Positions 8,200 through 59,255 of a DNA stretch of 64,000 nucleotides are shown piece after piece. Source of the stretch: Candidatus Poribacteria bacterium (GTDB lineage: Bacteria > Poribacteria > WGA-4E > WGA-3G); assembly GCA_965205015.1 (NCBI GenBank), contig OZ242029.1:5376001-5440000 (forward strand), in the 5' to 3' direction. The notes beneath the pieces were generated by a model. That model had not been told where the DNA came from, made no database searches, and worked only from the letters and a program-made list of their open reading frames with translations. Made by a program: the position numbers and the translations under genes. Within the stretch, counting starts at the first letter, position 1, and each line of letters begins with the position of its first letter.

Positions 8200-9855
8200 A
8201 TGCAGGAAAAAAGATGGCGAATTCTGTGGATTGATAACCAGATAGCTGATGTAGAGCAATCTGACGGGCACCTTAAGAATCAACATTCTGAAAAACAGAC
8301 CCATATAACATCCGGGCCCTACATCCACTTTCTAAAGTATCGAGGATACGACATTTCTTTAACACACACTATTGCTGAAGGCATTGCGCTGCTGCAAGAT
8401 GAAGCGTATCACGCCCTCCTGTTGGATTATAACGGTGCGACGCGAGAGGGGAATCTGCTTTCGTCCATTCGGCATGTGGATGCGCATATTCCTATTATTC
8501 TCCTAACACGCGAGGGTGGACAGGAAGTGCTGCAGCAAGCAAGTCTTTACGGTGTTGACACTGTTTTTATAGGGAGAGCAGACGATCAGGATGAAACTTC
8601 GTCTCGGCAGTTAGAGACATCGCTCGCTTTTGTACTTGAAAAGCAGACGAACCGAGAAGGATATATACCACAGGCTTACGCGCAGCACTTTAACAAAGCA
8701 CAAATATCGGGTGACACTACACCCGGACGCGATGCCACCGACGATTGGCGGACATGGATCGATACTTATGTGCGTCTCGTTGAATGGGATTTGCGACTGG
8801 ATACACTTCATAACGTTGATGAAATTAAATCCATTCATGAGATGGAGAAACGGGAGGCAAATGCTGCATTCGCTGACTATATTCAAGCCAATTATCACAA
8901 GTGGCTTGTGGGTGAAGCATCGCCTGCTTTGTCTGTGGATGTTGTTTACAAATATGTGATTCCTGAGGTTCAGGCGGGAAAGCAGGTCCTGTTTGTTGTT
9001 ATGGATTGTATGCGATTGGACCACTGGTTGAAGATTGAACCCTTGCTGTACCCCCTGTTTAATATAACCACAGATTACTACTATTCCATTCTGCCAACGG
9101 CGACCCGTTATGCAAGGAACGCTATTTTTAGCGGGTTGTTTCCGCTTGAATTTGCTGAACGACACCCCGACCTCTACGCAGAACCCGATACAGCGCACAC
9201 GAGTATCAACCGTTATGAGAAAGAACTGATGCGCTTACAACTTGAGCGGCACGGCATACTTCTCAAGCCGCCTCTCCATTACTTCAAGATTTTTGATACA
9301 CGCGGCGAAATTCAATATCTACACTGGCTGAACGTTACGGATAGAATTAGTTTGACAGCACTTGTTGTTGATTTCCTTGATATGCTGACACATACGCGGC
9401 ATGAGGTGAACTTACTACAGCAGCTTGTGCCAGATGAAGCGGCGTTTCGAACGCTCGCGCAAACATGGTTTCAACATTCACATCTTTATAGAATATTCAG
9501 GATTGCCGCTGCACGCGGTATGACAGTCGTCTTAACGTCTGATCACGGTTCGCTCCTTTGTCAAAATGCAGCGAAGGTGTCCAGTCAAGCTGAACTCACG
9601 ACGGGACTTCGATTTAAAGAGGGGAAGAACATCTCGTGTTTACCTGAAGCCGGGTGGGTCATAAAGGAACCAGGCGCGTATCGCTTACCGGGTGAAGAAG
9701 CACGAAAAAGTTATGTGCTCGCAAAAGAGGACTACTACTTCGTTTATGAAAGACAATTCGATGTCTATAAAGAAATATTTCAAGGCAGTTTCCAACACGG
9801 TGGTGTTTCACTTGAGGAGATGATTTTGCCTTGTGTTGTGCTGGAACCGAGGTAA
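8200..9855 (+). CDS. PorX-like bifunctional response regulator / PglZ alkaline-phosphatase-family protein
   Basis: N-terminal receiver (RILWID, LLLD, PIILLT). PglZ motifs VMDCMRLD, SILPTATRYARNAIFSG, TSDHG, FQHGGVSLEEM. Confidence 0.85.
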   Translation: MQEKRWRILWIDNQIADVEQSDGHLKNQHSEKQTHITSGPYIHFLKYRGYDISLTHTIAEGIALLQDEAYHALLLDYNGATREGNLLSSIRHVDAHIPIILLTREGGQEVLQQASLYGVDTVFIGRADDQDETSSRQLETSLAFVLEKQTNREGYIPQAYAQHFNKAQISGDTTPGRDATDDWRTWIDTYVRLVEWDLRLDTLHNVDEIKSIHEMEKREANAAFADYIQANYHKWLVGEASPALSVDVVYKYVIPEVQAGKQVLFVVMDCMRLDHWLKIEPLLYPLFNITTDYYYSILPTATRYARNAIFSGLFPLEFAERHPDLYAEPDTAHTSINRYEKELMRLQLERHGILLKPPLHYFKIFDTRGEIQYLHWLNVTDRISLTALVVDFLDMLTHTRHEVNLLQQLVPDEAAFRTLAQTWFQHSHLYRIFRIAAARGMTVVLTSDHGSLLCQNAAKVSSQAELTTGLRFKEGKNISCLPEAGWVIKEPGAYRLPGEEARKSYVLAKEDYYFVYERQFDVYKEIFQGSFQHGGVSLEEMILPCVVLEPR

Positions 9856-24162: not shown

Positions 24163-24411
24163 CGTAATTCTCCTAACATTTGGGAGTCAGATTGTTTCTG
24201 CTGGAAGAGGCAAGTCACAATTACATAGCGCACCTATTGACAGAATTTCCTTACAACAATTGTAACATAAGGTTGCAGCACGCGTCAACTGTGGCGCGAA
24301 GGTGGATCCTGTGTTAATTTACCAAAGACTCGGCAGAAAGCACCCTTGCTTTAGCTGGGTGATGAATGCCGCCCTCTTGGATTAGACCCAAGCGTGATGT
24401 CTAAAAAACAT

Positions 24412-24440
24412 TTGACTTTGGTAGTGAATTGTGGTATAAT
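24412..24440 (+). promoter_or_regulatory. Sigma70 promoter of tnpB
   Basis: TTGACT-17 nt-TATAAT with extended -10 TG. Confidence 0.8.
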
Positions 24441-24447
24441 ATTGTCA

Positions 24448-24520
24448 TACATTGTGGCGGTGGAGACTACCTCTCGCTTGAGAGTGCCACCGCACCGATT
24501 AGTCTCGGTATCACAATGTA
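24448..24520 (+). ncRNA. Structured 5' leader of tnpB (four stems plus pseudoknot)
   Basis: TACATTGTG/CACAATGTA, GCGGTGG/CCACCGC, CTCTC/GAGAG and ACCGA/TCGGT; bulge GACTA is complementary to loop TAGTC. Confidence 0.55.
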
Positions 24521-24531
24521 AAGGAAAGACA

Positions 24532-25692
24532 ATGTATACCACCACCACAATAAAACACCGTAGAACGGATTTTCTCGATTCCCTTGCCCGTGAGTCGGGG
24601 CGTTGCTATTCCAAAGTTGTCTCGCTTGTGAGAAAAACACATGCAAATAAGGACCTGTGGCTTTCTAAAGGCGGCGTTCAAAAATATCTACGTCACCGCG
24701 GGTATGCACTGCATTCCCAAAGTATCCAAGCGTGTGCGGATTCCTATTTTGATGCACTAAATTCGTATTTTCAGGTTCGCAAGGTCAATCCCGATGCGAA
24801 ACCTCCAAAGCGAACGCCAAAGCATTTCAAAGTCCGTTGGAAGTCCACTGCGATTCGTCATAAAGACGGAAAACTTATACTCTCTAATGGGCGTGGACGT
24901 GACCCGATTGTATTAGAAATAGAAGAAATAGAAACAAAACCTCGCTATGTAGAAATGTATTTTCGCCGCGGTTGCTACTATTTCGCGATTGTTGATAAAA
25001 TAGACGTACCACCAAAACAAGAGACAGGTATAGCAGTAGCAGTGGATATGGGCGAGATACACCCGATTGTCTCTCACGATGGCGAAAAAACCCTCATCTA
25101 TAATGGGCGGCTCCTGCGATCTATCGTTCAATATCGAAACAAAGTCAACGCGAATTTCCAAGCCAGTATGAGTCGGTGCCGGAAGCGTTCAAAACGCTGG
25201 TATCAACTTCTGAAGGCAAAACGCCGAACACTTGATAAAATTAACGCACAACTCAAGGATGCCGAACACAAAATCACATCACGCTTTATATCCGACTGCG
25301 AAAAGGCGAAGGCGGATACGATAGTGATTGGAGACCTAAAAGGCATTCGCGACCGCGCAAAGTTTGGCAAAAAGTCTAATCAGAAGATTCACTAGTGGGC
25401 ATTCTCTCGGATAGCAGAGAAAATCTGCTACAAAGCGGAGATGGCAGGTATTCACGTAATGTTTGAATCCGAAGCGTATACCTCACAGACCTGCCCCAAG
25501 TGTGCGAACCGAAAGAAACCTACAAACCGAAACTATCACTGCAAACACTGCGGTTTGAAGTATCACCGCGACGGTGTCGGTGCTATCAATCTATGGTCAA
25601 AAGTATCAGGATATTTGTTGTATCCTGTAGTCGGGGAACTGGCAGCCCCCTTAGGTGTCAAATTTCATTGGCATCTAAGTCGCTCTGGGTAA
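24532..25692 (+). pseudogene. tnpB: TnpB RNA-guided nuclease interrupted by an in-frame TAG at 25393-25395
   Basis: RuvC-I AVDMGE, RuvC-II IGDL, NQKIH*WAF read through in frame to the zinc finger CPKC..CKHC and RuvC-III HRDGVGAINL. Confidence 0.9.
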
Positions 25693-31916: not shown

Positions 31917-32510
31917 TTAGGGTAGGTGGCTTCCACCACCGGTTTGCGACCAGAAATCTTCGGCAACTTGTTGATGGTTCTGATGCAGCCAAAGATGAAT
32001 CCGCCTTAGAATGCGAGGCAATCCTTTTTGCGGCAAGTTTTCTACTTCCCAACTCGCCATTTGCCTCCGTAGCGAACTATCAATCGGGTTTTCAACCCCA
32101 ATATCTACTTGATGGCAGGCTTGTATGAGTTTATGGTCATCCGTGGCAAGGATGTTAGCATTACGAGTGAGCGTTGTTTGCACCAGAACTGCATCAGTGA
32201 TGTCAATTTCTAAAGTGTCAGCACTCTGCATTGCGGCGAGCGTAATAGGTAAGTCTACTTCAACAATTTCTATAGGTCCCGCGGAAAAATGGGAAAGTTG
32301 TTGTGAGGCAAGGTTGACATCTACCGCATAAACCTTTGTGAGAATCGCCTTTGCTTCAAGCAGGGTAAGCGTTGTCGTGAACCAACTCGTGTGGTCTCGG
32401 ATAAACGACTCGCACGCGGCAGATGCGGGATGGTTGTCAAGCAAGGAGTAGACAATCAGCATCGCGTCTAAGCCACGCGACGCGAATTGATCAGAAGATA
32501 AGGTCATCAC
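31917..32510 (-). CDS. PIN domain (VapC-like) toxin with C-terminal extension
   Basis: Acidic PIN positions LDAM, TLLE, ITDA, LATDD. Confidence 0.75.
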   Translation of the reverse strand: MMTLSSDQFASRGLDAMLIVYSLLDNHPASAACESFIRDHTSWFTTTLTLLEAKAILTKVYAVDVNLASQQLSHFSAGPIEIVEVDLPITLAAMQSADTLEIDITDAVLVQTTLTRNANILATDDHKLIQACHQVDIGVENPIDSSLRRQMASWEVENLPQKGLPRILRRIHLWLHQNHQQVAEDFWSQTGGGSHLP

Positions 32511-36677: not shown

Positions 36678-36790
36678 GGGGTAGGCACAAGACCTACCCC
36701 TACGGTAGGGTAGGCACAAGACCTATTGCTACGGTAGGGTAGGCACAAGACCTATTGCTACGGTAGGGTAGGCACAAGACCTACCCCTAC
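36678..36790. repeat. Tandem array of four 29-nt-period GTAG-type REP units
   Basis: (ggta)gggtaggcacaagaccta(cccc/ttgc)tac repeated four times with no unique spacers. Confidence 0.85.
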
Positions 36791-49740: not shown

Positions 49741-50958
49741 TTACGCATCAATGGCGTGGCCGAATTTTTGGCGGTATTCGTCGTGGACCATCTGCTCATA
49801 ACCCGTCGTTTCCGTTATCGGGAGGTCGATGGGCATCATGCCTGTCCGTGAGGATTCGTATAGCGCGATACACATCTCCACATCTTTTCTGCCGCCGATC
49901 CCGTATTCCGGTGGTTCGCCTGTAAGTGCTGCCCTCGCTGTCGTCATAATCTCCTCAGCAGTGCCGACGTTCCAATCGTCTATCGCATACGTTCTGAAAG
50001 GATTTTCATAGGTAATCTGTGGGTCGGTATGCACAACGATTCTCGAAAGAACATCTACACCATCAACCTGATGTCGTTCCGTTTCGATTGGGATGTCTTT
50101 CATTTCACCGTTGACGAGGGCACGCAGCGGAAAATCGGCTGTCCAGAAATCAACGTCTGTGATCACACCCTTCGTTCCCATAATCTGTCTGTACTTAATC
50201 GTCTCCTCTCCGACTTGGGAGGTTTCATAGATCCCGACAGCACCACTTTCAAATTCAATGATTGCGTGTCCCCAATCTTCGTAAACGTTGTTGTTGGAAC
50301 TCGGCGCGAATTGCTTGGTAATTCCTGTAATTCTTTTCGGTTCGCTTTGGGCATAAAACCGAATCTGGGACATCCGATGAACACCCATGTCGATGCAAAC
50401 GCCGGAGTGGGACGTAAATGTTGAGATAGGAGATTCTATGCCGCGCGGCTTTCCGGCACCGTCCACAAACGGTCTACGTCCGAAAGGTTCGATAAAGTGA
50501 ACCCGCGCAATGTCACCAAGAATACCCTCCTGAATGAGTTTGATGATGATGCGATCCCCCGGCATCCGAAAATAGTTTTCGGCGACCTCAAAGTGAACCC
50601 CATTTTTTCTGCAGCTGTCTATGATCACATCACAACAGGCGAGGGTCGGTGCCATCGGTTTTTCAACGATCGGATGCATCTTGCGTTCAGCGGCGATCTT
50701 CGCGACTGTATGGTGTTCATAGTCACCGGTGCTGATGTCTACAACGTCGATGTCCCTGTGTTTCTCCAGCATCTCTTCGACGTCCGTATAGTACGGGAGC
50801 CCGTATTTTTCACCGGCTTCGCGGGCGGTATCCGCGTCTACATCGCAGACGGCGATGTAATCCAGATCCCCTCTTTTCGTCAATTCGGCGATTGTCGGCA
50901 GATGCCAGCGTTTCGCGACCCAACCGCAACCCACGGATGCAATCTTGGCTTTCCGCAT
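49741..50958 (-). CDS. Gfo/Idh/MocA family oxidoreductase
   Basis: VGCGWVA, VEKPMA, AENY, DMGVH. Confidence 0.92.
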   Translation of the reverse strand: MRKAKIASVGCGWVAKRWHLPTIAELTKRGDLDYIAVCDVDADTAREAGEKYGLPYYTDVEEMLEKHRDIDVVDISTGDYEHHTVAKIAAERKMHPIVEKPMAPTLACCDVIIDSCRKNGVHFEVAENYFRMPGDRIIIKLIQEGILGDIARVHFIEPFGRRPFVDGAGKPRGIESPISTFTSHSGVCIDMGVHRMSQIRFYAQSEPKRITGITKQFAPSSNNNVYEDWGHAIIEFESGAVGIYETSQVGEETIKYRQIMGTKGVITDVDFWTADFPLRALVNGEMKDIPIETERHQVDGVDVLSRIVVHTDPQITYENPFRTYAIDDWNVGTAEEIMTTARAALTGEPPEYGIGGRKDVEMCIALYESSRTGMMPIDLPITETTGYEQMVHDEYRQKFGHAIDA

Positions 50959-51002
50959 TCCTTGTCTCCTTCACTCTTACTAAACTACGGTTTCCTATTC
51001 TA

Positions 51003-51926
51003 ACCCAAGTTGCCAGTTAGTAGGTAGTTGTAAATCCATGGGACCTCCTTTATAGTGTTTTTATACATAAAAAACTCAAAGGAGTATCCCATGGACTTGA
51101 CTATTGTAGAAGTTTACACGATTTGTGACGACTTTTTAATCGCAGCAGGCCACCAAGAGCATCCCTTGGCTAAAATGTCAGATGCTGAAGTCATGACGAC
51201 CGCTCTGATTGCCGCAAGATACTTTGGCGGGAATCAACACACGGCTTGTGCCGCCTTGAAAACCCTTGGATATATTCCAAACATGTTAGGACACTCGCGA
51301 TATAATCGCAGACTTCATCGGATCCGTGGTGTGTTTCAAACGCTGTTTGAACACTTCGCAGAGATATTCAAAGCAGAGAATCCGAATCAGATTTATAGCA
51401 TTGATACGTATCCGGTTTCCGTCTGCGACCCCATTCGCATTTCACGCTCACGCTTGTATCAAGGCGAAGCCTGGCGAGGAAGGATCGCAAGTAAACATCG
51501 CTATTTTTATGGTCTCAAGGCACATCTGATGGTCACTGAAGCCGGACATATCGTTGAAGCGTTCTTCACACCGGGACGTTGCAGTGATGTGCGAGGCTTA
51601 CGGTGTTATGGGTTCGATTTACCGCCGGGAGCCGTCGTCTATGCGGATAAGGCGTATTGCGATTATGCCATCGAAGATGCTTTACAAGAAGCAAGGATTA
51701 CGTTGAAACCCTTACGCAAGAAGAACGCCAAGCGTCAATATCCACCGTGGGAAGTTTATCTGCAACACACCTATCGCAAGCGTGTTGAGACTTCAAACAG
51801 TCTCATTGAACAGTTGCTCCCTAAGTCGATTCATGCGGTGACCCCTGCTGGATTTGAGTTGAAGGTCTTTTTGTTTATCATCGCTACTAATATCAAACAA
51901 CTTTTTACATAGGTAGCAACTTGGGT
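51003..51926 (+). mobile_element. IS982-family insertion sequence (left copy)
   Basis: Terminal inverted repeats ACCCAAGTTGCCA ... GTAGCAACTTGGGT around an intact transposase. Confidence 0.9.
51091..51912 (+). CDS. IS982-family DDE transposase
   Basis: MSDAEVMT, SRYNRR, IDTYP, YFYGLKAH, YADKAY, RKRVET. Confidence 0.92.
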   Translation: MDLTIVEVYTICDDFLIAAGHQEHPLAKMSDAEVMTTALIAARYFGGNQHTACAALKTLGYIPNMLGHSRYNRRLHRIRGVFQTLFEHFAEIFKAENPNQIYSIDTYPVSVCDPIRISRSRLYQGEAWRGRIASKHRYFYGLKAHLMVTEAGHIVEAFFTPGRCSDVRGLRCYGFDLPPGAVVYADKAYCDYAIEDALQEARITLKPLRKKNAKRQYPPWEVYLQHTYRKRVETSNSLIEQLLPKSIHAVTPAGFELKVFLFIIATNIKQLFT

Positions 51927-52075
51927 TATTATAACACAAACACTGGGTGTCTGCAACTTTTTGAGGAGTGCCACCCGCCACCGAGCGACAGCATCTGGTA
52001 CGGGATGCACTGTTCGATGCGCAATTTCACCCGATCAAACGGCACCTGTGGCTGGGGTGGGAAAAAATCATCTTT

Positions 52076-53023
52076 CTATTGTGGATAGACATACAGATGA
52101 AACACATCGCCGGGCGCGATATCCTCACCCATCAGGCGCAAATCTTTCGATTGCTCCTGCGTGATGTCGACATGCTGGATATAGGCGTAATTCCCGCTAT
52201 AACGGAGGTCGGCGTGCGTGAACTCGATCCGCCGACCGAACCGGTTGCGGCGGTGCGGGGCAGAACGTTGCGTCCACGCGAGCCGAAACGCTGCTGGCAA
52301 CCCATCTTGGATGCGTTGACCCGCTGCTGCCCGCAATGTGAGACCGTTTACATCATAGGCAAGACCGGTAAGCGTGAGACTGTAGAGGCGTGTTGACCCT
52401 GACCAGAAATAGCCCGTCTCTGCGATTGCGGTGAACTCTACAGCGTCGTTGTGAGAGGGGTTCGCGCTCGTATCCGCGGGGATACTGCGCTCTACAGGCG
52501 TGTTGTCTATCGGTCTGCCGTCTGTCGAAGCGTTTTGATACATCAATGAGATTTCCCACGTGTTTTCACGCAACTTCAACGCGTCGGTAAAGATAAATCT
52601 GACGTTCTCGTGTCTGCCGACACCAAAACGCTGGAAATCCGATTCGTTTCGGAAGTTCAAAAAGAAGTAGATGAACTGCGGAATCCCGTTATGCGTCCAG
52701 CGGGTCGCATGGGGCGGGTGAGAGCCCGTGCTCAGGCGCACCCACCGATTCTCCCGTTCAGAACGTCTCACACGCCGAGACCTATACAAAACCTCACACG
52801 CTGCGAGTCTGAATTCCTCGCCGGCTATGTCGTCGATACCGACAGCGTGTTTCGCGGCATACGGAAAAATCAACTCGTCAATCGTGATCGCATCGGGCGT
52901 CCATGAGGGTGCAGCGGGGACAGTCTCATCAGTCAGTGGCAGGGTCCTATTGACAACCCCTTCGTCACCGCAGCCTGATAGCAATGTGATGAAAAAAAGG
53001 CACGTGAAAAAGTTGCGTAACAT
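52076..53023 (-). CDS. Hypothetical lipoprotein (transposon cargo)
   Basis: Lipobox LSGC, GGAGG RBS; no recognisable domain. Confidence 0.7.
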   Translation of the reverse strand: MLRNFFTCLFFITLLSGCGDEGVVNRTLPLTDETVPAAPSWTPDAITIDELIFPYAAKHAVGIDDIAGEEFRLAACEVLYRSRRVRRSERENRWVRLSTGSHPPHATRWTHNGIPQFIYFFLNFRNESDFQRFGVGRHENVRFIFTDALKLRENTWEISLMYQNASTDGRPIDNTPVERSIPADTSANPSHNDAVEFTAIAETGYFWSGSTRLYSLTLTGLAYDVNGLTLRAAAGQRIQDGLPAAFRLAWTQRSAPHRRNRFGRRIEFTHADLRYSGNYAYIQHVDITQEQSKDLRLMGEDIAPGDVFHLYVYPQ

Positions 53024-53181
53024 GATGTTGCCTCCAGTTCGGTTAGGGTGGGGGTTGTAACCTCACCTGTTGGGGTATTTCATGAGTGTGTTGCCCCGGG
53101 ATCTTCACCGCACATCGCACTATGCTGGGACGGGCTCAGATCGGTACTATCGTCGGGCACAGGCCCAGGGGTCAATATGTT

Positions 53182-53278
53182 CTTTCATATACGCACAGGT
53201 TCGATTAAAAGGTGGTGAAACGGCTTCTACAGATGCCGGAGGACACGCGTTTCAATTCCAAACGGGTTCAATGAGAAG
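53182..53278 (-). CRISPR. Orphan minimal CRISPR unit: two divergent 30-nt repeats and one 37-nt spacer
   Basis: Minus strand CTTCTCATTGAACCCGTTTGGAATTGAAAC, spacer, CTTTTAATCGAACCTGTGCGTATATGAAAG. The repeats are 20/30 identical ungapped; the ATTGAAAC end is typical of class 1 (I-B-like) repeats. No cas genes in the window. Confidence 0.6.
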
Positions 53279-53309
53279 CCCCAAAGGCAATCTTTTAGAC
53301 GTATCCATC

Positions 53310-53504
53310 TCAAGATTTTCTATATTTTCGGATCAACGCCCCGATACCATAGCAGATCGGCACCCAGACAGCCGTTGCTATCAAATACATTGGCCATCTC
53401 TCAATCGAGTAGATGAAGCCAACAACCCATGTCACGATTGCAACCGTTTTCATCCATCTTTGCTTGAAGGCGACAAAAAGAACCACAGAAATCAGAAAAA
53501 TCAC
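53310..53504 (-). CDS. 64-aa hydrophobic membrane peptide with basic C-terminus
   Basis: TAAGGAG RBS 9 nt before GTG; up to three short hydrophobic segments; ends RKYRKS. Confidence 0.55.
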   Translation of the reverse strand: MIFLISVVLFVAFKQRWMKTVAIVTWVVGFIYSIERWPMYLIATAVWVPICYGIGALIRKYRKS

Positions 53505-53570
53505 GCCAAAAAACTCCTTACGTGCTAAAGACGCTCGCGAAAAACGAGATTTATACAGGATTCGCCTGTC

Positions 53571-53651
53571 GCCTGCTAAAACCGCTTTCCACGGCGGTGG
53601 ATAGCACTCGCAACGGAGATTGTTGCGAGGTGGAAACGCTATCCAACAGGC
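53571..53651 (-). ncRNA. Structured RNA (four stems plus pseudoknot) directly downstream of a consensus promoter
   Basis: GCCTG/CAGGC, GGATAGC/GCTATCC, CTCGCAAC/GTTGCGAG and ACCGC/GCGGT; bulge TTTCCAC is complementary to loop GTGGAAA. Confidence 0.6.
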
Positions 53652-53660
53652 TTATGTCGT

Positions 53661-53690
53661 ATTATACACTGTTTGCGGGGGAACCGTCAA
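53661..53690 (-). promoter_or_regulatory. Sigma70-type promoter
   Basis: TTGACG-18 nt-TATAAT preceded by an A-rich UP-like tract. Confidence 0.75.
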
Positions 53691-53705
53691 GTTTTTGTTT
53701 TATAA

Positions 53706-56700
53706 TCACTGATATGCTTCGTTGTCAAGTAAAGCCAAGTACAACTTATAGAACGCCACGCTTTCTTGAAGTCTCGATCCTGTTAACATTTCATGGAGAG
53801 AATTAATCAAACGTTCGAGAGACTTCGGATCATTCTGCGAACTGCGCAGACTTCTAAACACTTCAAGTGTTTGCTTCCTAAAGTTGTCAAATGCCACTGA
53901 ATTCTCAGCCAATTTTCCCCAATATTGTTCATCGTCAGGAAAAGATTCGATAATTCCACTATCTCCAAGAACATTGGTCGTTAACGTCCCAATGGGTAAA
54001 GCCCCATTTTCTTTCGGGCTAATATTCCCCACCGGTTTTATATGTTCAAAGTAGCCTGATACCTCCTGATTGATCGGGTGAAATAACTCCCGACAGGCTC
54101 GCCAGTGCAACTTTATCTCCTCCAACCGTTGGCTAAATCGACGTTCTTCCTCAATCGCATCCAAATCGAACTTATCAGAATTTTTATCAATGTGAACGGG
54201 GTCTTCATCTCCATTTCGATACCTATCCTGAGCTTTATCATAGGCTTCCTTGAGTTGCTTGCTAACAAGAATATCGTTAATGGTGTAGCCAGCTTCCATC
54301 AGATAAAGCACCTGGAGGCTTGGGACAGGAAAATTACCTTCGAATTCCGCTTGTGTTTTAAATCTCAAATCTTCGTCGTCATTCTCAGGTTGAGCAAAGA
54401 GATAGCGGAAAAGTCTTGTTGTGCCACCTTGTTGCTCGAATTTTAATCGGTAGTTCTCATAGTTGGGAGTGAATTCTTGATAAGGACTTGAACGCTTATG
54501 GGCATCCTTGTCAAAAGAAAAATTGGCAAAAGAAAAATTGGGCGCAACTTCATTAAAAGATTCTCTTAACATATCTCTTACAGCCCACTTGAAAGCATCA
54601 GGTTCAGCCCTGAGTAGGAGATCAATTAACTTTTCAAGCGGTGTTTCCGAAAGGACGCGCTGCCCTAAAACATGAGCTACATTTTTGTCTGAGAAATTGC
54701 GATCTGATCCTACAATTAAACCAAATGCTTGCTCGATAGCAGCGATTTCCGTTGCTACGTTGCTGAGTAAGCCATCAATCTCCGCCAACATACGCTCAAA
54801 AGTTATTGAAATCCAGTGATTAACGAGCCTATCATGATACTCCTGTTGAAGCCACTTCAGTGCCGGTTCAAGTTTATCAATATCAATAACGTCCCGATTT
54901 CGTTTATCCCTTCCAAAGATTCCTGTGCTAATCTCTTCAGTTGCAATAGCACCGTCCACGGCATTATCCGCATCTGTTTTGAGATTAGGATCCGCTGCAG
55001 AGTTCAACCCTTTCTGATTTTTTTCAATAAGGTTTTTAACCTCGCGAAGAAAATCTGACTTTGGCTTGAGTTGACAATACCCCTTGAGATTTCTCAACTT
55101 TTGGTCCAAGTCTTTACGAAATTGACGACGATACTGGTCACTATTTTTTTCAAAGACAGTACCATATGCTCCCTTAGGCGTCCATGAATGTAAATAAGAC
55201 TCAGCTTTCATCTTGGCTGTTTTGCGATCATGTGGATCAAATTTAGGAACGGAGGGGTTAATGGCGTCGTCGGTTTGAGAAATTTTTGCTCTTACATCGT
55301 CGAAAGAAACCAGTGTATTCGGGTCAGCAACACCACCTGCAGGGGGACTTTTTCTCCAGCGATCGCGAAGTATCCGAGTAAACCCTTCAACAGTAGAGGT
55401 AATGGTTGAATATTTAGGTTTCCCAGTGATCTCTACCCCAGAACTGAACATGTACTGGACAAATTCCCCACCCTGCCTCACTTGTCCAAAACGATAGTCC
55501 CGCTTTGGGACATTTGCAAGATCTGCTTCAATGCGTGCATCAATCCCAAGACTCCGAGCGAAGAGGTCCTTCGCTGCCATTTTACTAAGTTGTTCCCTCT
55601 CAAACAAACCTTCTGAGTTTACACAATTCCAGCTTTCCATATTGGTAGCAGAAAGGAATGTGGCAACGTGAAATGGGGCTTCGTATGTGTTAATGTAAGA
55701 ACCATTAGGGAACCGAACTTCATACCGCGTTTCAGGGCGTTTATAGTAGTCTAACTCAACGAGACTTGCGTAGCAGTTTGCTAACAAAATAGCCGAGTCG
55801 CCACCTAAAGCAAGTCCCTCATTATACATTGTAAAGATACCGTAAATTCGAGTATCCGCATTTCCGATGTGCCGGAAGTAATAAGCAATGTCCAACAACA
55901 TCCCGCTGCATGTTCCACCGCAGAGGGTTCCCACAAGAAACACGTTGTGTTTCTGATTATCAACATTGATTGCGCTATTGAAATGGTTCTTTAGAAATCT
56001 CTCGGCTTCGTTCTTATGATCTGGGTGTAAGAAAGCATGATATGCCTGAGTGAGTTTGGGTCTAACCGTATTATTCCATTTTTCCCAGAGCGATAAGCGC
56101 CCTGCCATTCGGAGGTTCCCGGCACCCGCACCCGCAAGCTTTACAGATTCGCTATCCAATATCCTTTTATCCAGCCATTTCGCTAGATATTTATCGTATA
56201 CCGGACTCTCTGGGTCTATTCTTTCACGGATCGGATCGGTATACGGGATAGATGTGTGGACAACATCATTAACTTCGTACGGCTTTGGCTTCAATCCTTC
56301 CTGAATTTTAGGGACGCCGCTTTCATACCAACCTTGAATACGATTCTCACCATCCAAGTGAAGATCTTTGCCATTATTCGTCTCATCGGTCTCAATGGAT
56401 ACATATCTGAAAATAGGAAGTCCTGCCTGTCCATATTCGTTAAGGTTAAGTTCCCGAAGATTCGTTAGAATTTCGACACCTGTTGTTCCTAACCCTACAT
56501 ACAACGTCGGTCTGATTTCCATATTCGCACCTCTATTTACAACGGACTTTGGGGCATTTTCAGAAGATGACTGCCCCTCTGCTTGTATAAAATTATCTTC
56601 TCCCAACACTGCTGTCTCAAATTGAAACTGTGTCATCGGTAAAAAACGACCGTCCCCTTGATTCTCAAAGTATTCCCAATGACTCGGACCTGCTTGCGTA

Positions 56701-57008
56701 TTGGCGAATATCCCATAACGCGTCGCTGTTACGTTAAGGTAAGCCTTTAACTGATCGGGACCGTCTCCGGTGACGCCCTCCCTCTTGCACTCTACAATAA
56801 CATCAAGAAGGACAGGAGGGCTTTTGCCTATATTTTCAGCCTCGATCCTATTTTTTTCCGCAATCAGCACAACATCGGCAGACCCTCGAGAACTAAAACT
56901 CTGAATTTGATGTTCGCACTTGGAATAAAAATCCCTGAATTTGGGTTCATTGAAATAGTTTACAACAACATCAACGACTTTAGCTTCCAGAGGCAGTTTC
57001 TCTTTCAT
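53706..57008 (-). CDS. Fusion of an HsdR-N-like PD-(D/E)xK nuclease domain and a tubulin-like (Tubulin_2/FtsZl) GTPase with helical C-terminus
   Basis: N-terminus ADVVL...IVECKR...QLKAYL..TRYGIFAN; then PTLYVGLGTTG, GAGNLRMAGRL, VGTLCGGTCSGMLLDIAY, ANCYASLVEL. Confidence 0.8.
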   Translation of the reverse strand: MKEKLPLEAKVVDVVVNYFNEPKFRDFYSKCEHQIQSFSSRGSADVVLIAEKNRIEAENIGKSPPVLLDVIVECKREGVTGDGPDQLKAYLNVTATRYGIFANTQAGPSHWEYFENQGDGRFLPMTQFQFETAVLGEDNFIQAEGQSSSENAPKSVVNRGANMEIRPTLYVGLGTTGVEILTNLRELNLNEYGQAGLPIFRYVSIETDETNNGKDLHLDGENRIQGWYESGVPKIQEGLKPKPYEVNDVVHTSIPYTDPIRERIDPESPVYDKYLAKWLDKRILDSESVKLAGAGAGNLRMAGRLSLWEKWNNTVRPKLTQAYHAFLHPDHKNEAERFLKNHFNSAINVDNQKHNVFLVGTLCGGTCSGMLLDIAYYFRHIGNADTRIYGIFTMYNEGLALGGDSAILLANCYASLVELDYYKRPETRYEVRFPNGSYINTYEAPFHVATFLSATNMESWNCVNSEGLFEREQLSKMAAKDLFARSLGIDARIEADLANVPKRDYRFGQVRQGGEFVQYMFSSGVEITGKPKYSTITSTVEGFTRILRDRWRKSPPAGGVADPNTLVSFDDVRAKISQTDDAINPSVPKFDPHDRKTAKMKAESYLHSWTPKGAYGTVFEKNSDQYRRQFRKDLDQKLRNLKGYCQLKPKSDFLREVKNLIEKNQKGLNSAADPNLKTDADNAVDGAIATEEISTGIFGRDKRNRDVIDIDKLEPALKWLQQEYHDRLVNHWISITFERMLAEIDGLLSNVATEIAAIEQAFGLIVGSDRNFSDKNVAHVLGQRVLSETPLEKLIDLLLRAEPDAFKWAVRDMLRESFNEVAPNFSFANFSFDKDAHKRSSPYQEFTPNYENYRLKFEQQGGTTRLFRYLFAQPENDDEDLRFKTQAEFEGNFPVPSLQVLYLMEAGYTINDILVSKQLKEAYDKAQDRYRNGDEDPVHIDKNSDKFDLDAIEEERRFSQRLEEIKLHWRACRELFHPINQEVSGYFEHIKPVGNISPKENGALPIGTLTTNVLGDSGIIESFPDDEQYWGKLAENSVAFDNFRKQTLEVFRSLRSSQNDPKSLERLINSLHEMLTGSRLQESVAFYKLYLALLDNEAYQ

Positions 57009-57039
57009 AAGTATCCTTCACCTTTATTTACTAAAGTTT

Positions 57040-57967
57040 ACCTAAGTTGCCACTAATCTTCAAATTGCATTTTTATATTTGTGGCGATAAGAAATAAAAA
57101 CAGTTTCAACTCAAATCCGTGGGTCTCCGTCACGGCGTGGATGGACTTGGGTAAAAGTTTTTCAACCAGACTATTAGTCACTTCAACGCGTTTCCTGTAA
57201 CGCTGCTGTAAGTATACTTCGTGAGGTGGATACTGACGCTTTGCATTCTTCTTGCGCAAGGGTTTGAACGCAATACCGACATCACCGAGGGCATCTTCAA
57301 TGGCATAGGTACAATAGGCTTTATCGGCATAAACCACCGATCCTTGCGGGAGATCAAACGTATAATATCACATGCCTACAACATCGTTGCATCCGCCCGG
57401 AGTGAAGAACGCTTCAACGATTTCACCCGTCTCGGAAACCCTCAGATGCGCCTTCAGTCCATAGAAATGCCGGCGTTTGCTGGCGATCTTGCCTCGCCAT
57501 GTTTCGCCTTGATACCGGCGACACCGAGAGATACGGATGTTATCACAGACGACGACAAGAAAGGTATCCACCGAATAGATATTATTGATGTTCTCGGTCT
57601 TCGCCGTTTCAACCAACTGTTCAAAGAGCGTCTGAAACAGCGGTCTGATCCGATGAAGTCTACGATTGTAGCGAGAGTGTCGAAGCATATTTGGAATATA
57701 TCCCAGCGTCTTCAAAGCAGCGCACGCGTTTCGGTGGTTGCCTGCGAAGTATCTCGCCGCAACGACTACCGTGGTCATGACTTCAGCATCTGTCATCTGT
57801 GTTTGTGGATGCTCTCGATGTCCGAGTGAAATTAAAAGATCGTCACAAATCGTATAAACTGCTACAATAGTTAGGTCCATGGGAGACTCCTTTGGTTTTA
57901 TCGTGATGTAAAAACTATAAAGGAGATCCCATGGATTTACAACTTTTTTATAGGTAGCAACTTAGGT
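57040..57967 (-). mobile_element. IS982-family insertion sequence (right copy, inverted)
   Basis: Terminal inverted repeats ACCTAAGTTGCCA ... GTAGCAACTTAGGT. Confidence 0.9.
57053..57880 (-). pseudogene. IS982 transposase with an in-frame TGA at 57368-57370
   Basis: VVGM*YYTFDLPQGSVVYADKAY aligns with VRGLRCYGFDLPPGAVVYADKAY of the left copy; an Arg codon has become a stop. Confidence 0.88.
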
Positions 57968-58043
57968 TATTCTACAAAAGAGTGAACAGGCTAACAGCCT
58001 ATTCTACAGCAAATTGTCCAAACTATAGTCACTCTTAATGATA

Positions 58044-59255
58044 TTACTGAGGGGGTCGTATTTTCTCAGTCAATTCTTCGTCAACGGTGATTGCCAGATG
58101 CCCTTGGGGTCCGACCATCTTATTTACCATAATTGACTCAAGTTCTTTATGCTCAAGGGCAGTCAGTTCCTCTGCCAAGGGACTGTTGATAAAGTCTTTA
58201 TAGGGACGACTTGTATCCATAAACGGCATGATGTACATCGGAATGACCGCCTGCAACATCGCTGCTCGCTTATGTGGCGTGCGATTTACACCTGCGCGAT
58301 GCCAAACCCGAGAATCGTAGACGATGTAACTCCCCGGTGGTGCCTCAACGACATCGGCATCCGGTCCGGTGTATGGCAATCCTTTGGACTCACGGTGTCC
58401 GTCCTGCCTTGAGGTATTTCCGTTTACCCACTCGACGGGTGGACCTTGACCGAATGTGTGGGATCCGAGTTTGAAACAGGTCGCCCCGTTTTCCTTACGA
58501 AATTCCGAGACGCAGAGGTTTCGTTGGACTCCCATGACCAAGCCATCAACTTGGTGAATCGGGATTCGGTTGGCAACTTCACTGCCGGCAATACCCCAGA
58601 GATAGGGAAAATCTGAGTGCCACCCTTGAACTTTCCGTCTGCCATCGTCGGGTGGGAGGATTGCAAAGCCTGGCGAGTGGCCGAGACGGATTTCCTGCGT
58701 TCGCATGTACTGACGCATCAGCCATAAGGAGACGGGTTCTGTCGCAATTTTCGCAACCGCTGCAGTCTCATTCAGGGGAGGCATACGTCGCTCGTAAGTG
58801 TCTTCTTCCCAGCGACCCGTGCAGCTCACCCGTTCCAATTCTTCGACAATATCAGGTGCGATGATGGAGGGGAGGCAGGCCCATCCGTTTTGCTCGAATG
58901 ATTTTAGGTATTCGGAGGGCAGATGTGCGGGACCATGTCCTGCAGAAAACACAGCACCTTCAGATGCTATGCTGCCATCCTCCATAAGCAGAATTCCTTT
59001 ATGACGCAGGTAGCAGCCATCTTTAACATCAGCGGGTTCCGCTTCGAGTTGGATTCCGGTAACGACATGACGATAAGTATTGCTGCCTTCAACCTGCTCC
59101 CATATTGCATCATCGTCAACATAATGAAATATTGAAAGTTCGTTGATCTCGGATACACCAAGAAAATCGCCATCGGGGTTCCGAAGTAGTGTAAAGTGCG
59201 CCGACGGCTTTTCAACCCGGACAACGCGTTCCTGAAACATTTCGTCTTTCACCAT
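58044..59255 (-). CDS. Phytanoyl-CoA dioxygenase (PhyH) family Fe(II)/2OG oxygenase with N-terminal extension
   Basis: WHSDF (HxD), ENGAT...GSH, VWHRAGVN..R. Confidence 0.85.
   Translation of the reverse strand: MVKDEMFQERVVRVEKPSAHFTLLRNPDGDFLGVSEINELSIFHYVDDDAIWEQVEGSNTYRHVVTGIQLEAEPADVKDGCYLRHKGILLMEDGSIASEGAVFSAGHGPAHLPSEYLKSFEQNGWACLPSIIAPDIVEELERVSCTGRWEEDTYERRMPPLNETAAVAKIATEPVSLWLMRQYMRTQEIRLGHSPGFAILPPDDGRRKVQGWHSDFPYLWGIAGSEVANRIPIHQVDGLVMGVQRNLCVSEFRKENGATCFKLGSHTFGQGPPVEWVNGNTSRQDGHRESKGLPYTGPDADVVEAPPGSYIVYDSRVWHRAGVNRTPHKRAAMLQAVIPMYIMPFMDTSRPYKDFINSPLAEELTALEHKELESIMVNKMVGPQGHLAITVDEELTEKIRPPQ

What the first reader, a model, noticed from the sequence alone, without database searches (positions are those of the whole stretch)
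53182..53278. Orphan single-spacer CRISPR unit in which each repeat keeps the half that ends up in the crRNA
Seen: two 30-nt repeats (20/30 identical) flank a 37-nt spacer, GCGTGTCCTCCGGCATCTGTAGAAGCCGTTTCACCAC on the minus strand. The upstream repeat keeps the canonical 3' end GGAATTGAAAC, the source of the 8-nt crRNA 5' handle. The downstream repeat keeps a canonical-looking 5' part, CTTTTAATCGAACC. No cas genes are in the window. Established: mobile elements carry mini-arrays, solitary repeats (RNA anti-CRISPRs) and CreA-like regulatory guides that borrow host Cas6/Cascade. Inference: a functional guide riding on the transposon rather than random decay.
Basis: partly seen in the sequence, partly recalled or inferred. 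Interest (0 to 1): 0.7.

Follow-up and report, generated by a model that had tools for sequence, protein, structure and literature searches.

The report
Leftover one-spacer CRISPR on a transposon
A real but leaderless one-spacer CRISPR fragment sits inside a jumping-gene insertion in a sponge-symbiont (Poribacteria) genome; it looks like the worn tail end of a CRISPR array carried along as baggage, not a proven working guide.

Summary
On the minus strand R1 (53278-53249), a 37-nt spacer (53248-53212) and R2 (53211-53182) are as described. R1 against R2 (20/30) is not significant alone: 6 such pairs in the window, mean 1.65 in shuffles. But both match the main 30-nt CRISPR repeat of Candidatus Poribacteria: 26/30 and 23/30 against a background maximum of 18/30. 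That repeat occurs in 100 of 175 Poribacteria genomes, next to type III-A csm genes, cas6 and cas1/cas2. The unit lies in a ~7.05-kb insertion. The insertion is bounded by two inverted IS982-family copies and an 8-bp target duplication, and is absent from the five nearest genomes. It lacks the conserved leader/promoter found before 8 of 10 real arrays. No cas gene is in the window. No spacer target was found. Tiny degenerate arrays and lone repeats are common in this phylum, and one (G069) has the same anatomy. Best reading: the trailer-end remnant of an array, carried as a passenger. A borrowed working guide is not excluded. The host's cas content and any RNA could not be tested.

The parts
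53249..53278 (-). R1, a near-intact CRISPR repeat (CTTCTCATTGAACCCGTTTGGAATTGAAAC); its last 8 nt, ATTGAAAC, are the expected crRNA 5' tag
   Evidence: 26/30 to the commonest Poribacteria repeat. Three of its 4 differences are natural variants: pos 4 C in 15/52 variants, pos 9 T in 5/52, pos 15 C in 7/52. Only pos 6 C is private, 0/52.
53212..53248 (-). Single 37-nt spacer
   Evidence: The 67-nt period is within the 62-73 range of real arrays. No target was found.
53182..53211 (-). R2, a degenerate terminal repeat: the first 14 nt are identical to the family repeat, and all 7 differences lie in positions 15-30
   Evidence: 23/30 against a background maximum of 18/30. Six of the 7 differences are seen in 0 of 52 natural variants.
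53279..53309 (-). 31 nt between the stop of the 64-aa ORF and R1; no leader here
   Evidence: The conserved leader (TTGACA near -51, TATAAT...TTTCATAAAGC) stands before the first repeat in 8 of 10 arrays compared, and is absent upstream of R1.
53310..53504 (-). 64-aa hydrophobic ORF upstream of the unit on the same strand; no family match
53661..53690 (-). Promoter-like site TTGACG-18-TATAAT (11 of 12); the only plausible source of read-through transcription into the unit
   Evidence: The number of such sites in the region equals the shuffle expectation, so this is a consensus match only.
53146..53175 (-). Weaker promoter-like site (9 of 12) just after R2, before the lipoprotein gene
52076..53023 (-). 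315-aa ORF with a lipoprotein-type N-terminus (LLSGC); cargo gene downstream of the unit
   Evidence: The signal peptide is read by eye. No Pfam, NCBIfam or PADLOC family.
53706..57008 (-). 1100-aa tubulin-like protein (Pfam Tubulin_2, E 7.7e-39); cargo gene upstream of the unit
   Evidence: About 40% identical homologues in G058 and G072 have no CRISPR-like repeat beside them.
50995..51935 (+). Left IS982-family copy with an intact 285-aa transposase (51055-51912)
   Evidence: At least 9 copies at 86% identity in G001.
57038..57975 (-). Right IS982-family copy, inverted, 71% like the left one; its transposase frame is cut to 170 aa
50971..50978 (.). Left copy of the 8-bp target duplication TCACTCTT
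   Evidence: G001 has the empty site with one copy.
58029..58036 (.). Right copy of the 8-bp target duplication TCACTCTT
   Evidence: Contigs in runs X1, X4 and X6 join across the insertion.

Best explanation
This is a genuine minimal CRISPR unit: one nearly intact repeat, one 37-nt spacer and one degenerate terminal repeat. It belongs to the 30-nt repeat family that dominates Candidatus Poribacteria. In relatives that family sits beside cas1-cas2, cas6 and type III-A csm genes. The unit has no leader and lies in the cargo of a ~7.05-kb insertion bounded by two inverted IS982-family copies. Most likely it is the leader-distal (trailer) end of a former array: the last full repeat, the last spacer and the decayed terminal repeat. 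It would have been left behind by deletion or rearrangement in a donor genome and then moved with its neighbouring genes as a passenger. Shown: its CRISPR origin, its place on a mobile insertion, the missing leader, and the frequency of similar remnants in the phylum. Inferred: that it is a relic and is not maintained for a function. If the host encodes the cognate Cas6 and Csm proteins, read-through transcripts could still be cut in R1 and yield one crRNA. Nothing here shows that this happens or that it matters. The confidence given (0.6) is for the relic reading; the CRISPR origin and the location on a mobile insertion I hold at well over 0.9.
For: CRISPR origin. R1 is 26/30 and R2 23/30 to the family repeat, against a window background of at most 18/30. 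The family occurs in 100 of 175 genomes with 0 control hits. The period of 67 fits the 62-73 range.

Cas context of the family. csm1-csm5 plus a CARF protein lie beside arrays in G111 and G003. cas1/cas2 followed by leader and array is read in G139. A strong Cas6 (147 bits) and Cas1 lie on the array contig of G003.

Trailer-end anatomy. Real arrays end in repeats degenerate at the 3' end. All 7 differences of R2 lie in positions 15-30.

No leader. 8 of 10 array starts share a leader with TTGACA near -51 and TATAAT; the window does not.

Mobile insertion. Flanks are contiguous in 5 of 5 nearest genomes. An 8-bp duplication is present. The transposases are IS982-family. Empty-site joints occur in runs X1, X4 and X6.

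Background of relics. 15 genomes with only 1-2 repeat hits were examined. Six hold tiny degenerate arrays, 6 hold a lone repeat at the 20/30 threshold, and 3 hits lie at contig ends. One of the 6 lone repeats (G069) has a 19/30 partner that keeps only the first 15 nt, which is the same anatomy as here. G005 has leader, repeat, 38-nt spacer and degenerate repeat in a chromosome with no Csm1 match.

No spacer target.

Literature. Passages of Shmakov et al. 2023 (bioRxiv 10.1101/2023.03.03.530964) say that mini-arrays near type III loci appear to be degraded non-functional repeats. They also say that many mini-arrays have a degenerate distal repeat, consistent with derivation from the terminal unit of an array.
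Against: R1 is close to working repeats: it has one private substitution (pos 6) and a perfect 3' 15 nt including the tag. R2 has 7 differences and none in the first 14 nt. By my own arithmetic a random placement would do this with probability C(16,7)/C(30,7) = 0.0056. This is compatible with past or present constraint on the part that ends up in the last crRNA. The unit lies on the same strand as all three cargo genes, 380 nt downstream of an 11/12 promoter-like site, so transcription is plausible. An identical 425-nt contig covering the unit is present in a run of a second study (X4), so the element is not a one-off assembly product. Cognate Cas6 and canonical arrays exist in 2 of the 5 nearest genomes, G002 and G003. 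The host may therefore have the machinery. The target searches were exact or allowed at most 3 mismatches, while type III systems tolerate more (recalled), so a target may have been missed.
Confidence: 0.6

Rival explanations
1. A working guide borrowed by the mobile element. The transposon carries a one-spacer array that the host's Cas6 cuts at R1 and that host Csm (type III-A) complexes load. This would direct interference against transcripts of a competing element, as virus-borne mini-arrays do.
For: The unit is on a mobile insertion. R1 has an intact tag and only one private substitution. It shares a strand with the cargo genes and lies downstream of a promoter-like site. The repeat family and csm genes are widespread in the phylum: 100 and 57 of 175 genomes. 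An identical copy occurs in a second study's run. Mini-arrays on mobile elements that use host Cas proteins are established (passages of PMC11656645).
Against: No target was found in the window, in 175 Poribacteria genomes (up to 3 mismatches), in IMG/VR or JGI metagenome contigs (exact), or in phage and plasmid records, where all hits had E of 1 or more. The unit has no leader or promoter of its own, unlike 8 of 10 arrays. R2 has lost the sequence around the expected cut site. The host's cas genes are unknown. Three of the 5 nearest genomes lack the cognate Cas6, and only 1 of those 5 has a Csm1 match. Distant homologues of the tubulin-like cargo gene have no such unit.
Confidence: 0.2
2. A regulatory or decoy RNA. 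One form is a CreA/CreR/scaRNA-like guide that uses partial complementarity to repress a gene, for instance the lipoprotein gene directly downstream. The other is a repeat mimic (RNA anti-CRISPR) that ties up host Cas6 or Csm.
For: A degenerate mini-array with a better upstream repeat is the anatomy of known regulatory mini-arrays (passages of Shmakov 2023). A promoter-like site for the lipoprotein gene starts 7 nt after R2. Solitary repeats on mobile elements can act as anti-CRISPRs (abstract of PMC10651486 in the listing). In G111 a similar one-spacer unit with its own promoter sits directly upstream of cas10/csm1.
Against: The unit is not in or near a cas locus. No match of 10 nt or more between the spacer and anything inside the insertion was found; the 4 ten-mers elsewhere in the window compare with about 3.4 expected by my own arithmetic. 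The effector seen with this repeat is type III, for which Shmakov et al. found no targets or conservation of mini-arrays. There is no promoter directly at the unit.
Confidence: 0.1
3. Chance resemblance: not CRISPR-derived at all.
For: R1 against R2 at 20/30 is within what the window yields by chance. The short motifs are expected by chance.
Against: Two adjacent 30-mers at the family's own spacing score 26/30 and 23/30 to the phylum's repeat, against at most 18/30 elsewhere in 128,000 positions. The reversed-pattern controls gave 0 hits in 175 genomes.
Confidence: 0.01

Closest known systems
Degenerate leader-distal end of a CRISPR array, or an orphan/minimal array
   Same: Direct repeats of a known family at the family's spacing. 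The last repeat is degenerate towards its 3' end, as in the real Poribacteria arrays and as described for array ends (passages of PMC4869251).
   Different: Only one spacer, no leader, no cas genes nearby, and located inside an IS-bounded insertion.
Mini-arrays near type III CRISPR-cas loci (Shmakov et al. 2023, bioRxiv 10.1101/2023.03.03.530964)
   Same: Two repeat-like sequences around one spacer, with the distal repeat degenerate. The repeat family is associated with type III-A genes. No target is detectable.
   Different: Those lie close to cas loci or arrays. This one is far from any cas gene (none in 64 kb) and on a mobile insertion.
Virus- and plasmid-borne mini-CRISPR arrays used in conflicts between elements (Medvedeva et al. 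2019, PMC6858448, seen in the search listing only; review PMC11656645, passages)
   Same: A one-spacer array on a mobile element, with repeats like those of the host clade's CRISPR systems.
   Different: The carrier is an IS982 composite-type insertion, not a virus or plasmid. No spacer target in related elements was found. The repeats are not identical to any array seen.
CreA/CreR-type regulatory mini-arrays and Francisella scaRNA
   Same: Degenerate repeat-spacer-repeat, with the better repeat upstream.
   Different: Those sit inside cas loci, use DNA-binding type I, II or V effectors, and show a seed match plus PAM to a nearby promoter. None of that was found here.
Atypical guides of CRISPR-associated transposons (CAST)
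   Same: A very short array travelling with a transposon.
   Different: CASTs are Tn7-like or Mu-like and carry their own cas genes (passages of PMC11656645). Here there are only IS982 DDE transposases and no cas gene.

Membership tests
CRISPR array of the Poribacteria 30-nt repeat family | Two or more direct repeats matching the family repeat | tested here: met
   R1 26/30 and R2 23/30; background at most 18/30; controls 0.
CRISPR array of the Poribacteria 30-nt repeat family | Repeat period within the family's range | tested here: met
   67 nt against 62-73 in arrays of G130, G132, G111, G097 and G139.
CRISPR array of the Poribacteria 30-nt repeat family | Conserved leader with promoter directly upstream of the first repeat | tested here: not met
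   Present in 8 of 10 array starts compared; absent upstream of R1.
CRISPR array of the Poribacteria 30-nt repeat family | cas genes nearby | tested here: not met
   No cas family among 45 distinct ORFs of 150 aa or more. No Csm hit by tblastn.
Mobile-element mini-array that exploits host Cas proteins | Carried on a mobile element | tested here: met
   Insertion with IS982 copies, an 8-bp target duplication and empty sites in 5 of 5 relatives. The exact transposing ends are unresolved: 16 nt and about 50 nt lie between the duplication and the recognisable IS ends.
Mobile-element mini-array that exploits host Cas proteins | Repeats identical or nearly identical to the host's own arrays | not testable with these tools
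   No whole genome is held for the window. Against relatives' arrays R1 is 26-27/30.
Mobile-element mini-array that exploits host Cas proteins | Spacer matches a related or competing element | tested here: not met
   0 hits; only E of 1 or more; nothing above shuffles in the window. The searches were exact or allowed at most 3 mismatches.
CreA/CreR-type regulatory mini-array | Located within or beside a cas operon | tested here: not met
   No cas gene in the window.
CreA/CreR-type regulatory mini-array | Partial (10 nt or more) seed match to a nearby promoter | tested here: not met
   No 10-mer match inside 50979-58028. Four elsewhere, against about 3.4 expected by my own arithmetic. PAM not assessed.
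RNA anti-CRISPR (solitary repeat unit) | Expressed repeat mimic that inhibits the host CRISPR-Cas system | not testable with these tools
   No RNA holder was listed. No promoter at the unit itself.
CRISPR-associated transposon (CAST) | Tn7-like or Mu-like transposition genes plus cas effector genes | tested here: not met
   Only IS982-family DDE transposases. The cargo proteins have no cas or Tns family.

The most novel reading that the evidence does not exclude
An IS982-bounded transposon of sponge symbionts deliberately carries a leaderless, single-spacer type III crRNA gene. The gene is transcribed by read-through from cargo promoters. It is matured by the recipient's Cas6 (cut only in R1, 3' end trimmed) and loaded into host Csm complexes. 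The element thereby attacks transcripts of a rival element, or makes itself useful or addictive to hosts that have the system. This would be the first IS-type composite transposon shown to borrow type III immunity.
Probability: 0.12. Interest if true: 0.7.

Novelty: new member of a known kind. Interest (0 to 1): 0.3.

Why it matters
It shows that fragments of CRISPR arrays in Poribacteria are moved around by insertion sequences, and that one-spacer and lone-repeat remnants are common in this uncultivated sponge-symbiont phylum. For annotation, such units should not be read as evidence of an active CRISPR system or of a designed guide. If the unit did turn out to be processed and loaded, it would extend guide borrowing by mobile elements from viruses, plasmids and Tn7-like transposons to simple IS-bounded transposons and to type III systems.

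Tried and rejected
Chance repeat: rejected by comparison with the phylum's repeat, although R1 against R2 alone is not significant.

A third, more degenerate repeat in the window: none above 18/30.

Rfam: no family at gathering score in the window apart from two tRNAs. In 52900-53800 at E up to 10 there are only weak CRISPR-DR60 and DR2 matches to R1 (16.6 and 16.1 bits, far below their cut-offs of 45 and 37), plus three matches to animal or plant RNA families that I take as chance.

Hairpin in the repeat: the family repeat, R1 and R2 fold no better than shuffles, so this is an unstructured repeat type.

Spacer targets:
- Window: best 23/37, equal to the shuffles.
- 175 Poribacteria genomes, up to 3 mismatches: 0.
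- IMG/VR, exact: 0.
- JGI metagenome contigs, exact: 0.
- Phage and plasmid records by blastn: only 17-23-nt matches at E of 1 or more.

Relatives of the cargo:
- The tubulin-like protein found no relative in metagenome contigs.
- Cargo DNA has no close match in 175 genomes. The exceptions are 65-66% matches to the tubulin-like gene in G058 and G072, short matches of 70-83% to that gene's 5' end in four genomes, short matches of 85-97% to the first 31-48 bases of the query in three genomes, repeat-to-array matches, and one 91-nt match in G005.
- The loci of G058 and G072 hold no repeat-like sequence of at least 20/30, and no homologue of the 64-aa or 315-aa ORFs.

Defence annotation of the cargo: no PADLOC or NCBIfam family.

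Expression: no RNA holder was listed for the cargo stretch. Only contigs could be laid, so neither RNA ends nor levels could be seen. Parts without cover in X4, X5 and X6 are not interpreted.

Whether a related copy has a longer array at this site: the one diverged contig in X6 (about 92-93% identical over the tubulin-like gene) ends near 53613, before the unit, so this stays open.

Supplementary files of the papers were not opened; the supplementary tables of Shmakov et al. on type III mini-arrays may hold relevant cases.

Full report
WHAT IS THERE. On the minus strand the sequence reads as follows: R1 CTTCTCATTGAACCCGTTTGGAATTGAAAC (53278-53249), a 37-nt spacer (53248-53212), then R2 CTTTTAATCGAACCTGTGCGTATATGAAAG (53211-53182). 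By my own count R1 and R2 agree at 20 of 30 positions. This alone is weak. 30-mer pairs with at least 20/30 identity at spacing 55-85 occur 6 times in the window, against a mean of 1.65 in 20 Markov shuffles. The window holds no tandem array of this kind and no Rfam family besides two tRNAs.

WHOSE GENOME. A pyruvate:ferredoxin oxidoreductase of the window is 98% identical to proteins of Candidatus Poribacteria MAGs, so the organism is a sponge symbiont. No whole genome is held for the window. Everything about the host's own CRISPR-Cas content therefore rests on relatives.

THE REPEATS ARE REAL CRISPR REPEATS. R1 with up to 3 mismatches hits arrays in 7 of 175 Poribacteria genomes; the reversed control gives 0. 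The arrays there have 36 to 116 copies of CTTTTAATCGAACCAGTTTGGAATTGAAAC and close variants, at periods of 62-73 nt. This repeat, with up to 3 mismatches, is present in 100 of 175 genomes, control 0. Scanning both strands of the window with it gives R1 26/30 and R2 23/30. The next best scores are 18/30 at 8 places and 17/30 at 31 places. So both halves are independently CRISPR-derived, and there are only two.

I compared R1 and R2 with 52 distinct natural variants (822 copies) in the fetched loci.
- R1: three of its four differences are ordinary polymorphisms (pos 4 C in 15/52, pos 9 T in 5/52, pos 15 C in 7/52). Only C at position 6 is private (0/52).
- R2: identical to the family repeat in its first 14 nt. 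It has 7 differences, all in positions 15-30, and six of them occur in no natural variant.

The repeat is unstructured: it folds no better than shuffles.

WHICH SYSTEM USES THIS REPEAT. In G111 the array region is followed by cas10/csm1, csm2, csm3, csm4, csm5 and a CARF-type protein. G003 has csm1-5 followed by four degenerate repeats. In G139 I read cas1 (its C-terminal part), then cas2, then a leader and the array from the printed sequence. In G003 a strong Cas6 (147 bits) and a Cas1 lie on the contig that carries the canonical array. Csm1 passes its cut-off in 57 of 175 genomes. The direction of transcription (CTTTT...ATTGAAAC) follows from the leader promoters and from the degenerate far ends. 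That ATTGAAAC is the 8-nt 5' tag left by Cas6 is recalled knowledge, not tested here.

THE UNIT IS ON A MOBILE INSERTION. In all 5 nearest genomes, window 50000-50980 continues directly into 58030-58980. The ~7.05-kb segment between them is bounded by two inverted copies of an IS982-family element that are 71% alike. The left copy has an intact 285-aa transposase; the right copy's frame is cut to 170 aa. The left type has at least 9 copies at 86% identity in G001. The 8-mer TCACTCTT stands at 50971-50978 and again at 58029-58036, and the empty site of G001 has it once. Contigs that join across the insertion exist in runs X1, X4 and X6.

One caveat applies. 16 nt on the left and about 50 nt on the right lie between the duplication and the recognisable IS ends, and part of the right stretch is itself multi-copy in G003. 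The ends that actually transposed are therefore not resolved.

The cargo reads, on the minus strand:
- a 1100-aa tubulin-like protein (Pfam Tubulin_2);
- a promoter-like site TTGACG-18-TATAAT;
- a structured stretch;
- a 64-aa hydrophobic ORF;
- 31 nt, then the CRISPR unit;
- a weaker promoter-like site;
- a 315-aa lipoprotein-like ORF.

None of the cargo proteins matches a PADLOC or NCBIfam family.

WHAT KIND OF UNIT. Eight of ten array starts that I compared share a leader...AAATTAACTTGACA, 17 nt, TATAAT, about 14 nt, TTTCATAAAGC, ending at the first repeat. These include the one-spacer units of G005 and G111. The 90 nt upstream of R1 have nothing like it. The unit therefore does not look like the leader end of an array that collapsed. 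It looks like the far end: the last full repeat, the last spacer and the terminal repeat. Ends of real arrays in this family decay from the 3' side (G130, G049, G048). Degenerate repeats at the leader-distal end are a known feature of arrays (passages of PMC4869251).

R1 is good at its 3' end and R2 only at its 5' end. It recurs independently in G069: an intact repeat, a 36-nt spacer, and a second repeat that keeps only its first 15 nt.

The distribution in R2 is not random. By my arithmetic, 7 differences that all avoid the first 14 positions have probability 0.0056. This says that array ends in this family are or were constrained in their 5' part. It does not say that this copy is in use.

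HOW COMMON SUCH REMNANTS ARE. I looked at 15 genomes with only 1-2 repeat hits. Six have tiny degenerate arrays of 2-4 repeats, six have a lone repeat at the 20/30 threshold, and three hits are at contig ends. Examples from the closer look:
- G108: a leader followed by a single repeat.
- G113: the first 22 codons of a cas6-like gene run straight into a lone repeat.
- G001 (a complete chromosome, 98% marker identity to the window): only three degenerate repeats and no Csm1 match.
- G005: leader, repeat, 38-nt spacer and degenerate repeat, with no Csm1 match.

Shmakov et al. 2023 found mini-arrays near 10-14% of type III loci, with no conservation and no targets. They judged them degraded, and they note that many mini-arrays have a degenerate distal repeat (passages).

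TESTS OF FUNCTION THAT WERE POSSIBLE.
- Spacer against the window: best 23/37, as in shuffles. No shared 11-mer. Four 10-mers, none inside the insertion, against about 3.4 expected.
- Spacer against 175 Poribacteria genomes (up to 3 mismatches): 0.
- IMG/VR, exact: 0. JGI metagenome contigs, exact: 0.
- Phage and plasmid records: only E of 1 or more.
- Conservation: cargo DNA has no close relative in 175 genomes. The ~40% identical tubulin-like homologues in G058 and G072 have no repeat-like sequence nearby.
- A run from another study (X4) holds a 425-nt contig identical over 53043-53467. A sponge metagenome (X6) holds a ~92-93% identical copy of the tubulin-like gene in a different upstream context, but that contig stops near 53613, before the unit.
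- Host machinery: among the 5 nearest genomes, the strong Cas6 and canonical arrays are in G002 and G003. G001 and G005 have a weaker Cas6 match beside a Cas1, and G004 has neither. The window's own genome could go either way.

VERDICT. The most economical account is a trailer-end remnant carried as a passenger (about 0.6). A guide that borrows host Cas6 and Csm is possible (about 0.2). A regulatory or decoy RNA is less likely (about 0.1). Chance is excluded. It is a new member of a known kind. Interest is moderate to low, unless RNA data or a target turn up.

Noticed in passing
window 53575-53690 (minus strand): An 11/12 promoter-like site is followed by an ~85-nt stretch with nested stems (GGATAGC/GCTATCC, CTCGCAAC/GTTGCGAG) and a possible third pairing (TTTCCAC/GTGGAAA). 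A related copy in G005 (L114) keeps the promoter box and the stems through changes on both sides. No ORF follows it there on that strand. No Rfam match. It may be an undescribed small RNA or a cis-regulatory leader.
   Followed up: partly
window 53706-57008 (minus strand): A 1100-aa protein with a Pfam Tubulin_2 domain (E 7.7e-39) and a weak N-terminal HSDR_N_2 match (E 0.0048, below its cut-off). Carried as transposon cargo. Only ~40% identical homologues were found, in 2 of 175 Poribacteria genomes. No PADLOC family.
   Followed up: partly
L103 7717-7815 (G111, minus strand): A one-spacer unit (repeat, 39-nt spacer, repeat degenerate at the 3' end) with its own TTGACA leader sits directly upstream of cas10/csm1. 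It is separated from the main 70-repeat array by an IS4-family insertion.
   Followed up: partly
L105 9901-10062 (G034): A family repeat plus 51 nt is duplicated in tandem (81-nt unit, two near-identical copies) with no further repeats. It seems to lie inside an open reading frame.
   Followed up: no
L142 about 1440-1530 (G113, minus strand): The first 22 codons of a cas6-like gene (MRIQVFADVDKQITLPINYNHL) run straight into a lone CRISPR repeat. It looks like a recombination scar between cas6 and an array.
   Followed up: no
L129 9909-10085 (G001, minus strand): Three degenerate repeats, two of them preceded by the same ~45-nt GC-rich palindromic segment: a ~147-nt tandem duplication of a repeat-containing unit.
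   Followed up: no
window 36679-36790: A tandem array of 3.9 copies of a 29-nt unit (GGGTAGGCACAAGACCTACCCCTACGGTA, 92% matches) between two genes. Each unit holds a short palindrome.
   Followed up: no
window 24394-25395 (+), 8200-9855 (+), 31917-32510 (-): A TnpB-like OrfB_IS605 protein (333 aa), a PglZ-domain protein (551 aa) and a PIN-domain protein (197 aa). These are other mobile or defence-flavoured genes in an otherwise housekeeping stretch (dnaN, ABC exporters, PreP peptidase).
   Followed up: no
window 57977-58028: The ~50 nt between the right IS982 copy and the target duplication are themselves repeated in at least 5 contigs of G003 (88-91% identity). They may be an extended IS end or a small separate element.
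   Followed up: no
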